Shown here in pieces: positions 13,959 through 15,961 of a stretch of DNA of 64,000 bases (its first letter is position 1; each line of letters starts with the position of its first letter). The notes beneath the pieces were generated by a model. That model made no database searches and was not told the DNA's origin. It saw nothing but the letters and a program-made list of their open reading frames with translations. The position numbers and the translations under genes are program-made. The stretch lies in assembly GCA_963793265.1 (NCBI GenBank), contig CAWBZI010000001.1, positions 608,001 to 672,000 on the forward strand. The letters are read 5' to 3'. Origin of the DNA: an uncultured cyanobacterium. GTDB taxonomy: Bacteria; Cyanobacteriota; Cyanobacteriia; Phormidesmidales; Phormidesmidaceae.

Positions 13959-14040
13959 CACAAACTTTGCACCCAAACTAAACACTCGCAGCTTATCAAC
14001 CTACTGGCTGTCTCAATATATTCAAACGCTGTTAGGGCAA

Positions 14041-14568
14041 TCAGCCATTACTCGACAAAAAAGGCAAGACTTCAGCAACCCGATCAGACACCTGCTCGCT
14101 CGAACGCCTCGCCCAATACTCGCTTAAAAAATGAATTTGCCGTAGCCCCACGATCAGATTTAAACCTGGAATAACAATCCACCAGCAAACTAAAGGCGCA
14201 CTCAATCCTTCAGCGACATACAGCCGGTTGATCTCTCGATACAGCCGATACTGAACGATATAAATCCATAAAACGCCTGAGAATGCCAGCCAGCTAAACC
14301 AGCTTGGCACATCTGGATCGAACCGAGCGAGCGCTAATGGCACGACAATGCCGAGGACGAAAGGAATAATGCATACTGCGCCTGACCATACGTTTGCGAT
14401 CGCCTCATCCGACTCAGATTGCTGAGCAGCGTAAGCTTTCAGCTCGTCTTGAATCATCCACTTGTAGTAGCCGTAATACAGCAGCCCAGACGCTACCGAG
14501 CGTAAAATGACGCGAGTTAAGGGGCGAGGTGTGCCCACAGCAGAGGTCGCCGGAGAAGTAGCAGTCAT
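14041..14568 (-). CDS. Membrane protein, DUF4234-like
   Basis: Several hydrophobic helices; LYYGYYKW and IPGLNLIVG motifs. Confidence 0.55.
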   Translation of the reverse strand: MTATSPATSAVGTPRPLTRVILRSVASGLLYYGYYKWMIQDELKAYAAQQSESDEAIANVWSGAVCIIPFVLGIVVPLALARFDPDVPSWFSWLAFSGVLWIYIVQYRLYREINRLYVAEGLSAPLVCWWIVIPGLNLIVGLRQIHFLSEYWARRSSEQVSDRVAEVLPFLSSNG

Positions 14569-14669
14569 GGAGAAAAAGGCACTAGCAAAAGTTTTTGTAT
14601 CCTAGCGCGAGTTGGAGCGCCTTGTTCTGAGATCTGTTTCGAGTAAATCTATGCCTCGTTTCAACAAAG

Positions 14670-14700
14670 TGTCCTGACTCAGCTAAGCAACTGAGTACTA
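14670..14700 (+). promoter_or_regulatory. DIF1-like promoter of sRNA copy 1 (TCCTGA at -35)
   Basis: TGTCCTGA at 14670-14677, 36 nt before the shared motif; GTACTA 17 nt later. Confidence 0.5.
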
Positions 14701-14706
14701 ATAATT

Positions 14707-14814
14707 GGTAGATGCACCCTGATGTTTCCTCGGCTGTCATACCCTCGGTTCACGCTTGAATTCACACTTTTGTGGCGATGCGTACTGTCGGTTGATTAGC
14801 TGAGGATTTTTTTT
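14707..14814 (+). ncRNA. Putative NsiR1-like small RNA, copy 1 (~108 nt)
   Basis: Begins GGTAGATGCACCCTGA; stem TCCTCGGCTGTCA/TGATTAGCTGAGGA followed by T8; no ORF. Confidence 0.65.
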
Positions 14815-14837
14815 GTTTTTAGCTGGCTTGCCGTATT

Positions 14838-14867
14838 TGTCCTGAACCCAATCGCCGCCTTGGAATA
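14838..14867 (+). promoter_or_regulatory. DIF1-like promoter of sRNA copy 2 (TCCTGA at -35)
   Basis: TGTCCTGA at 14838-14845, again 36 nt before the shared motif; GAATA 17 nt later. Confidence 0.5.
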
Positions 14868-14874
14868 GTTAAGT

Positions 14875-14929
14875 GGTAGATGCACCCTGACCATTCCCTG
14901 GCACTTTTTAGCGCTAGGGAATTTTTTTT
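14875..14929 (+). ncRNA. Putative NsiR1-like small RNA, copy 2 (~55 nt)
   Basis: Begins GGTAGATGCACCCTGA; stem ATTCCCTGGC/GCTAGGGAAT followed by T8. Confidence 0.7.
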
Positions 14930-14931
14930 GC

Positions 14932-14961
14932 AAAAAAAGCCGCTAGCGAAGTAGCGACTTT
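14932..14961 (-). terminator. Intrinsic terminator of the 15002-15508 gene
   Basis: Minus strand GTCGCTA-cttcgc-TAGCGGC-TTTTTTT. Confidence 0.7.
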
Positions 14962-15001
14962 CTTTCAACGATCATTCTTTCAACGATCAAAGGCGTCAGA
15001 A

Positions 15002-15508
15002 CTACGCAGACTCAGCCGCTGGTTCTTCAGCAGGTTTCTCCTCAGCAGCGGGTTCTACAGGTTCGTCACTAGCAACGGGAACCTCAGCAACCGGTTCAGT
15101 CGTTTCAACGGCTTCGGCAGCAGGTGCCGTTGATTCAGTCGTTTCGCTAGAGTCAGCAGCCACCGACTCACTGCCATCAGCCGCTTCAGTTTCAGAAACT
15201 TCGGGCACTTCAGGTTCAGCGACCTTTGCAGAAGGCTTAGGCCCACGTACTAAAGCAGGATTCATCGGCCCTTTAGGCTTATCGTCCTTGCCTCGGCCCT
15301 TACCTTTACGTCCCTTGCCTTTACCACCCCGACCACTGTCACGATCGTCGCGGCTATAGGTCTGACTCTGGCTTTCGCTTTGGCCTTCGCCGCTGTCTTT
15401 GCGATCAGCCTTCTTAATCGGTGGAGGCACGTTACTAACAGGTGCAGGCGTGGGCTCAGCCTGCTTTGCCGCCTCACGCTCACTTTTTTTGATAGGACGC
15501 TCTGCCAT
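15002..15508 (-). CDS. Conserved low-complexity hypothetical protein
   Basis: MAERPIKKSER start, GKGR-rich segment, NPALVRGPKP motif, acidic tail. Confidence 0.7.
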   Translation of the reverse strand: MAERPIKKSEREAAKQAEPTPAPVSNVPPPIKKADRKDSGEGQSESQSQTYSRDDRDSGRGGKGKGRKGKGRGKDDKPKGPMNPALVRGPKPSAKVAEPEVPEVSETEAADGSESVAADSSETTESTAPAAEAVETTEPVAEVPVASDEPVEPAAEEKPAEEPAAESA

Positions 15509-15577
15509 CGATCTCTCCGCTGTATTACGTAAATTGCCAATTAATGGTATCACGTGCGATTGAGAGAAAAGCGCAGC

Positions 15578-15961
15578 TTAGCTAGGTGGCCAGCCATCGT
15601 CCGTTTGAGGAAGCGGGCTTTCGCTGCCCAGCAAAGGCGTTTCACCGTCAGAAGATGCGTCAATTGTCTTGCCTACTTCGCCGTTGTCCAGCACTGCTTC
15701 AGGATCAAAGTTCAGACCTAGTACATCAATCAGCGCGTCTTCATCTGAGTTGAGCTGATAGAACGGCACCATTAGGTTAGAAAGCTTAGGCTCTAGGGCA
15801 TTAACAACGCCTAGAATAAGGAATGAGGACGGTCGGCGTCCGCCTTCGGGTGTGCGTACGGAAGTCGTAGACATCTGAACTTCGAGCCAGGTACGGTTGG
15901 CGCGGAAGTAGTCCAGCCATTTGTCTCTGATAACCGAAGTAAAGTTCTCGAAAAAGGCCAT
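15578..15961 (-). CDS. DUF5331-like cyanobacterial protein
   Basis: KWLDY...NR.W, RRPSSFLILGV..ALEP.L, L..LGLNFDP. Confidence 0.75.
   Translation of the reverse strand: MAFFENFTSVIRDKWLDYFRANRTWLEVQMSTTSVRTPEGGRRPSSFLILGVVNALEPKLSNLMVPFYQLNSDEDALIDVLGLNFDPEAVLDNGEVGKTIDASSDGETPLLGSESPLPQTDDGWPPS

What the first reader, a model, noticed from the sequence alone, without database searches (positions are those of the whole stretch)
14670..14929. Tandem pair of NsiR1-like sRNA genes with identically spaced DIF1-like promoters in an apparently non-heterocystous cyanobacterium
Seen: the 17-mer TGGTAGATGCACCCTGA occurs at 14706-14722 and 14874-14890 (168-bp period). Each copy is preceded exactly 36 nt upstream by TGTCCTGA (14670, 14838) and followed by a different hairpin plus T8, while the intervening sequence is unrelated. 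This is the pattern of two independent transcription units conserved only at promoter and seed. Knowledge (recalled, not database-verified): NsiR1 of heterocystous Nostocales is a ~60-nt multicopy tandem sRNA starting GGTAGATGCACC, expressed from promoters with the DIF1 motif TCCGGA at about -35. Inference: this is an NsiR1-type module outside the hetF context, in a ~50% GC genome unlikely to be Nostocales. That would suggest an older sRNA/promoter circuit predating heterocysts. Copy 1 carries an extra ~50-nt loop that may be a second functional domain.
Basis: partly seen in the sequence, partly recalled or inferred. Interest (0 to 1): 0.82.

Follow-up and report, generated by a model that had tools for sequence, protein, structure and literature searches.

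The report
Two NsiR1 sRNA genes, non-heterocystous host
These are two real genes for NsiR1, a small regulatory RNA known from heterocyst-forming cyanobacteria, here in a nitrogen-fixing thin-filament cyanobacterium outside that group, so the RNA seems to belong to an older developmental circuit whose job in such organisms is still unknown.

Summary
Both units pass the Rfam NsiR1 model (53.5 and 45.9 bits, gathering 39). Each has TCCTGA where the DIF1/sigma-HetZ -35 element TCCGGA sits, then a spacing that fits the published sigma-HetZ promoter consensus, an invariant 17-nt 5' module and its own terminator.

By an RpoB tree the host sits next to Vasconcelosia (Nodosilineales), apart from Nostoc and Calothrix. 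It carries nifH, patX-hetR and hetZ but no HetP-family gene.

The module is not peculiar to this genome. The 17-mer with a TCCGGA-like hexamer at -36 to -34 occurs in 125 of 132 units from loci whose names are not Nostocales. In 151 sampled cyanobacterial genomes, NsiR1 over threshold occurs in exactly the 42 that carry HetZ. The pair is syntenic and conserved within the genus.

Copy 1's extra 60-nt loop is not conserved, so a second functional domain is unlikely. No expression data exist, and target prediction gave nothing above chance.

This scan reached the same reading before on other genomes (e1-5235552, e1-7422769, e1-3137765, e1-7723643, e1-7723654). Verdict: a new member of a known family, of moderate interest.

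The parts
14670..14677 (+). Copy 1 promoter -35 element: TGTCCTGA, with core TCCTGA at 14672-14677 (the DIF1/sigma-HetZ-type hexamer with T in place of G-32)
   Evidence: The hexamer is invariant in 5 of 5 genus orthologues. Its position matches the TCC[GT]G[AGT] peak at -36 to -34.
14694..14700 (+). Copy 1 -10 region: aGTACTA. G at -11 and A at -9 fit the nGNA element of the sigma-HetZ consensus
   Evidence: Consensus TCCGGA-N16-17-TGNA-N7-9-T is from PMC13342950.
14706..14814 (+). nsiR1 copy 1, about 108 nt: invariant 5' module at 14706-14722, extended terminator hairpin with a 60-nt lineage-specific insertion, and T8 at 14807-14814
   Evidence: Rfam RF02399 at 45.9 bits, gathering 39. Fold energy -36.2 kcal/mol. 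The insertion is unique in the genome and not conserved in orthologues.
14838..14845 (+). Copy 2 promoter -35 element: TGTCCTGA, with core TCCTGA at 14840-14845
   Evidence: TCCTGA is invariant in 9 of 9 genus orthologues.
14862..14868 (+). Copy 2 -10 region: gGAATAG (G at -11, A at -9)
   Evidence: GGAAnA is conserved in the genus.
14874..14929 (+). nsiR1 copy 2, about 56 nt: invariant 5' module at 14874-14890, terminator hairpin, and T8 at 14922-14929
   Evidence: Rfam RF02399 at 53.5 bits. The terminator stem covaries in the genus: 3 pairs have changes on both sides.
14041..14568 (-). orf175, a hydrophobic protein of no known family, transcribed divergently from copy 1. If its 5' UTR is at least 140 nt long, copy 1 would be antisense to it
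   Evidence: No family hit. Homologues lie beside the pair in 2 genus relatives, loci L155/L164 and L157. Absent from 122 NsiR1 loci of other lineages.
15002..15553 (-). orf183, a low-complexity charged protein of no known family, convergent with copy 2
   Evidence: No family hit. Homologues lie beside NsiR1 in 7 genus relatives.

Best explanation
The region holds two independent genes of the NsiR1 small-RNA family. Each is read from its own promoter, whose -35 element (TCCTGA) is a variant of the DIF1 motif TCCGGA. That motif is recognised in Anabaena by the sigma factor HetZ, whose own gene is switched on by HetR. Each gene ends at its own intrinsic terminator, giving RNAs of about 108 and 56 nt.

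Shown here: family membership, promoter anatomy, conservation, the host's position outside the heterocystous clade, and the presence of hetR, patX and hetZ in the host.

Inferred: transcription depends on sigma-HetZ and so on the HetR circuit, probably under nitrogen stress. The RNAs probably act like Nostoc NsiR1, pairing through the exposed invariant 5' module with mRNAs to block translation.

The Nostoc target alr3234 (HetP-like) has no counterpart in this genome, so the targets must differ and are unknown. The two genes belong to a five-member family in this genome. Three members carry DIF1-like hexamers, one sits behind a HetR-operator-like palindrome, and one has no conserved -35.
For: Family membership:
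- Rfam RF02399 gives 53.5 and 45.9 bits against a gathering score of 39.
- The genome holds 4 matches over the cut-off, and a script found a fifth look-alike.

Promoter:
- Both copies read TCCTGA-N16-nGNA-N8-T. This fits TCCGGA-N16-17-TGNA-N7-9-T. The same paper says G-32 can be fully or partly replaced (PMC13342950, passages).
- The patX-hetR promoter of this genome also has TCCTGA, 61 nt before patX.
- TCC[GT]G[AGT] lies at -36 to -34 in 66 of 76 Nostocales units and 125 of 132 other units. Background is 346 of 24400 windows, or 1.4%.

Regulators present in this genome:
- hetR at 235 bits.
- HetZ model NF037963 at 599.7 bits, cut-off 550.
- patX with two RGSGR motifs.

Co-occurrence in 151 sampled genomes:
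- NsiR1 over gathering in 42, HetZ over cut-off in the same 42, HetR in 43.
- 0 of 108 HetR-negative genomes have NsiR1 over gathering.

Conservation within the genus:
- 12 of 12 relatives have NsiR1.
- TCCTGA and the 17-mer are invariant while spacers vary.
- The terminator covaries, and flanking genes are syntenic.

Host:
- RpoB is 91.9% identical to Vasconcelosia and 86% to Nostoc and Calothrix. The two Nostocales form a clade with 100/100 support that excludes the host.

Mode of action in Nostoc: PMC9045159 (passages).
Against: - There are no expression data. No RNA run holds this DNA, so start sites, sizes and regulation are untested.
- TCCTGA differs from the canonical TCCGGA, and no experiment shows that this organism's HetZ reads it.
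- Target prediction found nothing above chance. The best seed duplex was -23.8 kcal/mol, against -20.4 to -26.9 for 20 shuffled seeds. Complementary 12-mers numbered 217, against 169-958 for shuffled seeds.
- HetP-family genes, which include the validated trans target in Nostoc, were not found.
- The co-occurrence counts come from related genomes and are not independent events.
- My split into 'Nostocales' and 'other' rests on record names and recalled taxonomy. Some unnamed MAGs counted as 'other' could be heterocystous.
Confidence: 0.75

Rival explanations
1. They are genuine NsiR1-family sRNAs, but the housekeeping or another group-2 sigma factor transcribes them. On this view the conserved TCCTGA is a binding site for some other factor, or is conserved for another reason, and has nothing to do with HetZ.
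For: TCCTGA is not the canonical TCCGGA. TCCTGA is a common hexamer in this genome, with 1606 copies. No in vivo data exist. One family member (class D, C1:1305103) has no conserved -35 hexamer in the genus.
Against: The hexamer has a fixed position and is invariant in 14 of 14 genus orthologues of the two copies. TCCTGA and TCCGGA are interchangeable at the same offset across lineages. NsiR1 and HetZ overlap perfectly, 42 of 42 and 0 of 109. No sigma-70 consensus promoter was found.
Confidence: 0.1
2. The invariant 17-nt 5' module is mainly a protein-binding site, for example for a PatR-like RNA-binding protein, and not a base-pairing seed. The RNAs would then act by titrating or recruiting that protein.
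For: Seventeen invariant nucleotides across orders is longer than a usual sRNA seed. No complementary target stands out. In Nostoc, PatR CLIP-seq enriches NsiR1 with log2 fold change 5.6 (PMC11797042, passages).
Against: In Nostoc, base pairing with the hetF and alr3234 mRNAs is shown experimentally (PMC9045159, passages). I did not look for a PatR homologue in this genome. This rival does not exclude the best explanation.
Confidence: 0.15
3. Copy 1 acts in cis as an antisense RNA to a long 5' UTR of the divergent gene orf175. This would mirror NsiR1.1, which overlaps the hetF 5' UTR in Nostoc. Copy 2 would be the trans-acting sibling.
For: Copy 1 lies 138-246 nt upstream of the orf175 start codon on the opposite strand. 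The same divergent arrangement occurs in G165, and orf175 also lies beside the locus in G171. The NsiR1.1/hetF precedent is in PMC9045159.
Against: The orf175 transcription start is unknown, so overlap is unproven. orf175 lies beside NsiR1 only within this genus: 0 hits in 122 loci of other lineages.
Confidence: 0.12
4. These are not functional genes: either decaying repeat copies or mere bidirectional terminators for the flanking genes.
For: Both flanking genes lie on the opposite strand, and copy 2's terminator is followed by an A-run that could serve orf183.
Against: Promoter motif, 5' module and terminator are all conserved, with covariation, in the genus and across orders. The locus is near-identical in contigs of independent coded runs.
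Confidence: 0.03

Closest known systems
NsiR1 of Nostoc/Anabaena sp. PCC 7120 (Rfam RF02399; Ionescu et al. 2010, seen only as cited in PMC9045159, PMC4030482 and PMC6596454)
   Same: Same Rfam family. Same 5' sequence, UGGUAGAUGCACCCUGA. Copy 2 is also about 60 nt with an intrinsic terminator. Each copy has its own promoter with a DIF-type hexamer near -35. Copies are multiple, tandem and slightly divergent.
   Different: Two tandem copies plus three dispersed, against 12 in tandem. Not next to hetF. The hexamer is TCCTGA, not TCCGGA. Copy 1 carries a 60-nt hairpin insertion. The host lies outside the heterocystous clade and has no HetP-family gene, so the validated target alr3234 has no counterpart.
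RNA162, the NsiR1-like 57-nt RNA annotated in Limnospira indica PCC 8005 (PMC8400943, passages read)
   Same: An NsiR1-family RNA in a filamentous cyanobacterium that carries hetR and patS but forms no heterocysts. It was detected as a transcript there.
   Different: That paper mentions it in passing within a radiation transcriptome study. It gives no promoter analysis, no distribution and no link to HetZ. Limnospira does not fix N2, whereas this host has nifH.
DIF1-motif promoters of patX, hetR and patS read by sigma-HetZ (PMC13342950; PMC11298460; Elhai and Khudyakov 2018, recalled and seen only as cited)
   Same: A -35 hexamer TCCGGA or a variant of it, with 16-17 nt spacing to an nGNA -10 element. 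A DIF1-type promoter is also predicted before patX-hetR in the non-heterocystous Leptolyngbya BL0902, and this genome has TCCTGA before its own patX-hetR.
   Different: Those are promoters of protein-coding genes. That an sRNA with this promoter type follows HetZ outside the Nostocales was not stated in any paper I could search.
Multicopy 'sibling' sRNAs such as Qrr (recalled) and others reviewed in PMC9045159
   Same: Several paralogues share one seed but have divergent bodies and separate promoters.
   Different: Here the paralogues carry different promoter types: DIF1-like, and a HetR-operator-like palindrome.

Membership tests
NsiR1 (Rfam RF02399) | Score at or above the curated gathering threshold of the covariance model | tested here: met
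   53.5 bits (14874-14928) and 45.9 bits (14706-14814) against 39.
NsiR1 (Rfam RF02399) | Conserved 5' sequence UGGUAGAUGCACCCUGA, followed by a terminator hairpin and a U-run, about 60 nt in all | tested here: met
   The 17-mer is exact in both copies. Both have a hairpin plus T8. Copy 2 is 56 nt. Copy 1 is 109 nt because of a 60-nt insertion in the hairpin loop.
NsiR1 (Rfam RF02399) | Each copy has its own promoter with the DIF motif TCCGGA near -35 (PMC4030482) | tested here: inconclusive
   The hexamer at the right place is TCCTGA, not TCCGGA. The same variant occurs at the same offset in 33 non-Nostocales and 2 Nostocales units. G-32 is reported as replaceable (PMC13342950). No functional test was possible.
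NsiR1 (Rfam RF02399) | Tandem multicopy array in the vicinity of hetF | tested here: not met
   There are two tandem copies only. The neighbours are orf175, orf183, a DUF5331 protein and an SBP_bac_5 protein, with no CHAT-domain gene among them. I did not locate hetF elsewhere in the genome.
NsiR1 (Rfam RF02399) | HetR- and NtcA-dependent expression restricted to developing heterocysts | not testable with these tools
   No RNA run is listed for this DNA. The host probably forms no heterocysts.
NsiR1 (Rfam RF02399) | Represses alr3234 (HetP-like) in trans and hetF in cis | tested here: not met
   The HetP family model NF037966 has no match in this 98.97%-complete genome. The same model hits Nostoc 4 times, Calothrix 2 times and Phormidesmis once over cut-off. 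The hetF relation was not tested.
Sigma-HetZ (DIF1) promoter class | Consensus TCCGGA-N16-17-TGNA-N7-9-T(+1), tolerant at T-35, G-32 and A-30 (PMC13342950) | tested here: met
   Copy 1 reads TCCTGA-N16-AGTA-N8-T. Copy 2 reads TCCTGA-N16-GGAA-N8-T. The consensus of 118 non-Nostocales NsiR1 promoters is TCCGGAt-N17-G.A.A.
Sigma-HetZ (DIF1) promoter class | The genome encodes HetZ and its activator HetR | tested here: met
   HetZ model NF037963 scores 599.7 bits against a cut-off of 550, at C1:964787-965902. HetR model PF03574 scores 235 bits.
Sigma-HetZ (DIF1) promoter class | Transcription depends on HetZ in vivo or in vitro | not testable with these tools
   Only co-occurrence is available: NsiR1 over gathering in 42 of 42 HetZ-positive and 0 of 109 HetZ-negative sampled genomes.

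The most novel reading that the evidence does not exclude
NsiR1-type RNAs are an ancestral, obligatory output of the HetR/sigma-HetZ/PatX circuit in every HetZ-bearing filamentous cyanobacterium, and they predate heterocysts. The family uses one invariant 5' module behind two promoter types: the sigma-HetZ -35 element and a direct HetR operator. Promoter type follows which regulator a genome has. In non-heterocystous diazotrophs such as this one, the RNAs would mark and help lock in a hidden, possibly patterned, cell state within filaments that look uniform.
Probability: 0.35. Interest if true: 0.8.

Novelty: new member of a known kind. Interest (0 to 1): 0.5.

Why it matters
What hetR, hetZ and patU do in filamentous cyanobacteria that form no heterocysts is openly called a mystery (PMC11298460, PMC12669612). 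The nsiR1 promoter is the smallest and earliest cell-specific reporter of that circuit in Nostoc (PMC4030482).

This module is conserved, with its promoter, in exactly the sampled genomes that carry HetZ. That gives a ready-made readout of sigma-HetZ activity: a promoter-gfp fusion or a Northern probe. It also gives a candidate effector for testing whether undifferentiated filaments have patterned or nitrogen-dependent cell states.

It also corrects the view in a review that NsiR1 is confined to heterocyst formers (PMC6596454).

Tried and rejected
- **Expression:** no RNA holder is listed for window 14000-15600. DNA contigs of coded runs X1-X4 only confirm the locus. One contig covers 14584-15039 with a single difference.
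- **Targets:** duplex scan of the 17-mer against 5402 start regions gave a best energy of -23.8 kcal/mol, within the range of 20 shuffled seeds. Complementary stretches of at least 12 nt were not enriched.
- **Finding hetZ:**
  - A family name used as accession gave an error.
  - Two guessed neighbouring accessions turned out to be unrelated families.
  - Candidates picked by HetR-box-like palindromes were a glucosylglycerol phosphatase, RseP and a low-complexity secreted protein.
  - Paralogue filters were too loose.
  - A local sigma-factor profile finally pointed to the right ORF.
  - The PDB sequence search found no HetZ chain.
- **Naming kinship:** searches through named loci return no kinship codes, so I used an RpoB tree instead.
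- **Copy 1's insertion as a mobile element:** it is unique in the genome and absent from the fetched loci.
- **orf175/orf183 as a general NsiR1 neighbour:** 0 hits in 122 loci of other lineages.
- **Papers not held:** Ionescu 2010, Brenes-Alvarez 2020 and Du 2012. What they say on distribution is known to me only through citing papers. A search for HetZ plus Pfam returned only unrelated papers.
- **Supplements:** I did not open those of PMC13342950, and they may list NsiR1 promoters among the 546 HetZ sites.

Full report
**Observation.** The 17-mer TGGTAGATGCACCCTGA occurs at 14706 and 14874, and nowhere else in the 64-kb window even with three mismatches allowed. Chance expects 0.15 matches. 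The composite TGTCCTGA-N28-TGGTAGATGCACC matches at 14670 and 14838, with zero expected. Each unit ends in its own hairpin followed by T8, at 14807-14814 and 14922-14929. The spacers and hairpins of the two units are unrelated. Both flanking ORFs, 14041-14568 and 15002-15553, lie on the minus strand and hit no Pfam or NCBIfam family.

**Identity.** Both units exceed the gathering score of Rfam RF02399 (NsiR1): 53.5 bits for 14874-14928 and 45.9 bits for 14706-14814, against 39.
- The model alignment shows full-length matches. Copy 1 has 60 nt where the model has 8 in the terminator loop.
- RNAfold extends copy 1's terminator into one long hairpin of -36.2 kcal/mol.
- The whole genome is 5.68 Mb in 7 contigs, about 50.7% G+C and 98.97% complete. 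It holds four matches over the cut-off. A script found a fifth look-alike at C1:191454.

**Host.**
- The genome has nifH at 464 bits, over its cut-off.
- It has hetR. The HetR NCBIfam equivalog scores 475.8 bits, just under its cut-off of 489.
- An 85-aa patX with two RGSGR motifs lies directly upstream of hetR.
- It has hetZ: NF037963 at 599.7 bits against a cut-off of 550, at C1:964787-965902, with a 414-aa ORF behind it. A HetZ-related-2 paralogue is also present.
- No HetP-family gene was found. The same model hits Nostoc foliaceum (4 over cut-off), Calothrix anomala (2) and Phormidesmis priestleyi (1). It hits neither Leptolyngbya PCC 6406 nor Vasconcelosia.
- In an RpoB tree of 9 rows, the genome groups with Vasconcelosia minhoensis LEGE 07310 (91.9% identity) and one MAG, with 99/97 support. 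Nostoc and Calothrix form a separate 100/100 clade at 86% identity to the host.
- Vasconcelosia is classed in Nodosilineales.
- I conclude that the host is a thin-filament, nitrogen-fixing cyanobacterium outside the heterocystous clade. This rests on phylogeny and gene content, not on morphology.

[quoted passage not shown] A 2026 paper shows that HetZ is a sigma factor whose region 4 reads T-35 C-34 C-33 G-32 G-31 A-30. Its consensus is TCCGGA-N16-17-TGNA-N7-9-T, and T-35, G-32 and A-30 are replaceable (PMC13342950, passages).
- Copy 1 reads TCCTGA-N16-AGTA-N8-T. Copy 2 reads TCCTGA-N16-GGAA-N8-T. The patX-hetR promoter of this genome also has TCCTGA, 61 nt before patX.
From these I extracted 210 distinct units, after dropping units within 60 nt of a locus edge.
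  - 76 units came from 20 loci whose names I recognise as Nostocales.
  - 132 came from 97 other cyanobacterial loci, named Leptolyngbyaceae, Elainellaceae, Oculatellaceae, Microcoleus, Symploca, Spirulina, Geitlerinema, Phormidesmis, Chamaesiphon and others.
  - 2 came from non-cyanobacterial MAGs and look like chance.
- TCC[GT]G[AGT] starts at -36 to -34 in 66 of 76 and 125 of 132 units, against 1.4% of random windows. Near-variants such as CCCGGA account for most of the misses. TCCTGA occurs 33 times outside the Nostocales.
- The non-Nostocales consensus is TCCGGAt-N17-G.A.A.
- The group labels are mine, drawn from record titles, and some unnamed MAGs may be misplaced.

**Distribution.** I searched 151 cyanobacterial genomes drawn evenly from the phylum.
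- NsiR1 is over gathering in 42, with 8 further genomes showing single weak hits at E above 1e-4.
- HetR is present in 43.
- HetZ is over cut-off in 42.
- The NsiR1 and HetZ sets are identical.
- The one genome that is HetR-positive and HetZ-negative (G117) has only a weak NsiR1 hit.
- The 42 genomes span 12 family codes. One of them, f7, has 22 of 22 genomes positive, with long arrays and the best scores. I take it to be the heterocystous Nostocaceae, which is an inference.
- Kin are not independent, so this is a pattern and not a statistic.

**Conservation in the genus.** All 12 sampled congeners have NsiR1 over cut-off. The units fall into classes.
- Class A matches copy 1 and class B matches copy 2. 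Both have TCCTGA.
- Class C has CCCGGA.
- Class D has no conserved -35.
- In alignments of 9 class-B and 5 class-A units, TCCTGA, the -10 region and the 5' module are invariant while the 17-nt spacer varies.
- Three pairs of the class-B terminator stem change on both sides.
- Class-A units are 60-109 nt long. Their inserted sequences are unrelated, and copy 1's insertion is unique in the genome. I therefore reject the idea of a second functional domain.
- Homologues of orf183 flank the locus in 7 relatives, and homologues of orf175 in 2. Neither flanks NsiR1 in other lineages.

**A second promoter type.**
- The fifth paralogue (C1:191454) is preceded by GAGGGGTTTCGCCCCTC. Both arms match the 17-bp HetR site of the hetP promoter, GAGGGGTCTAACCCCTC (PMC4192349, passage). 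The palindrome is centred near -35, upstream of a CATAAT -10.
- The palindrome followed by GTAGATGCACC occurs in 26 of 31 genus genomes, with 0 hits for the reversed control.
- A looser form occurs in 37 of the 151 sampled genomes.
  - That is 32 of 43 HetR-positive genomes, including G117.
  - It is also 5 of 108 HetR-negative genomes.
  - The reversed control gave 7 hits.
- So one 5' module is wired to both regulators of the circuit.

**Function.** In Nostoc, NsiR1.1 is antisense to the hetF 5' UTR, and NsiR1.4 pairs across the alr3234 start codon and lowers translation (PMC9045159, passages). Here there is no HetP-family gene and no adjacent hetF. My two target scans gave nothing above shuffled controls. 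No RNA data exist. I therefore commit to a trans-acting, sigma-HetZ-driven sRNA with unknown targets. Two non-exclusive alternatives remain: a protein-binding role for the module (PatR binds NsiR1 in Nostoc, PMC11797042) and a cis-antisense role of copy 1 on orf175.

**Novelty.**
- A 2015 review states that NsiR1 exists in cyanobacteria that differentiate heterocysts (PMC6596454, passage).
- A 2021 paper notes an NsiR1-like RNA in non-heterocystous Limnospira in passing (PMC8400943, passages).
- My full-text searches found no paper describing the phylum-wide link to HetZ or the HetR-box paralogues. The two primary NsiR1 papers were not held.
- The pair is a new member of a known family. The broader pattern is worth a specialist's attention.

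Noticed in passing
Own genome C1:191410-191517, outside the window (about 417 kb before its start): A fifth NsiR1-like gene (GTAGATGCACCCTGA plus a terminator) falls below the Rfam threshold. It sits behind GAGGGGTTTCGCCCCTC, a palindrome whose arms equal the HetR site of the hetP promoter. The arrangement is conserved in 26 of 31 genus genomes and occurs in 32 of 43 HetR-positive sampled genomes.
   Followed up: partly
Whole genome G000: TCCGGA occurs only 37 times in 5.68 Mb, against a Markov expectation of 419. It is the ninth most depleted of the 64 palindromic hexamers. GAGCTC, GGCGCC, GCCGGC and CCCGGG occur 10 times or fewer. Avoidance of the canonical DIF1 hexamer, perhaps driven by restriction systems, may explain why this genus uses TCCTGA or CCCGGA at -35.
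   Followed up: partly
Own genome C1:1305103-1305161 and class D units in relatives (L150, L163, L166, L170, L171): This NsiR1 paralogue starts ATGTAG and has no conserved -35 hexamer. It has a conserved upstream block AAATCC[GT]GCATCTTGGT whose TGCATCT could pair with the AGATGCA of the 5' module. That would be a possible anti-seed hairpin if transcription starts further upstream.
   Followed up: no
Sampled genome G147, C1:2342794-2343931: A genome of the family I take to be Nostocaceae has a second tandem array of 7 units at about 148-nt spacing. Each unit has a GGGG-N5-CCCC box, a TATACT -10 and AAGTAGATGCACC. The array is far from that genome's main NsiR1 array at 4.65 Mb. An earlier scan note (e1-2695072) describes a second NsiR1 array beside exoD.
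   Followed up: no
Own genome C1:268467: A HetR-box-like palindrome GGGGTCTGGCCCCTC lies 266 nt upstream of a 105-aa ORF. From the sequence alone, I read that ORF as an HU-type DNA-binding protein.
   Followed up: no
Own genome C1:146794-148207: patX (85 aa, two RGSGR motifs, hydrophobic N-terminus) lies directly upstream of hetR, with TCCTGA 61 nt before patX. This is the same layout as reported for Leptolyngbya BL0902 (PMC11298460).
   Followed up: partly
Coded runs X2-X4 laid on window 14500-15100: Other contigs in the same metagenome runs carry diverged NsiR1 units, again preceded by TTTTGTCCTGA. Related organisms with the same promoter variant therefore co-occur in these samples (loose ends).
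   Followed up: no
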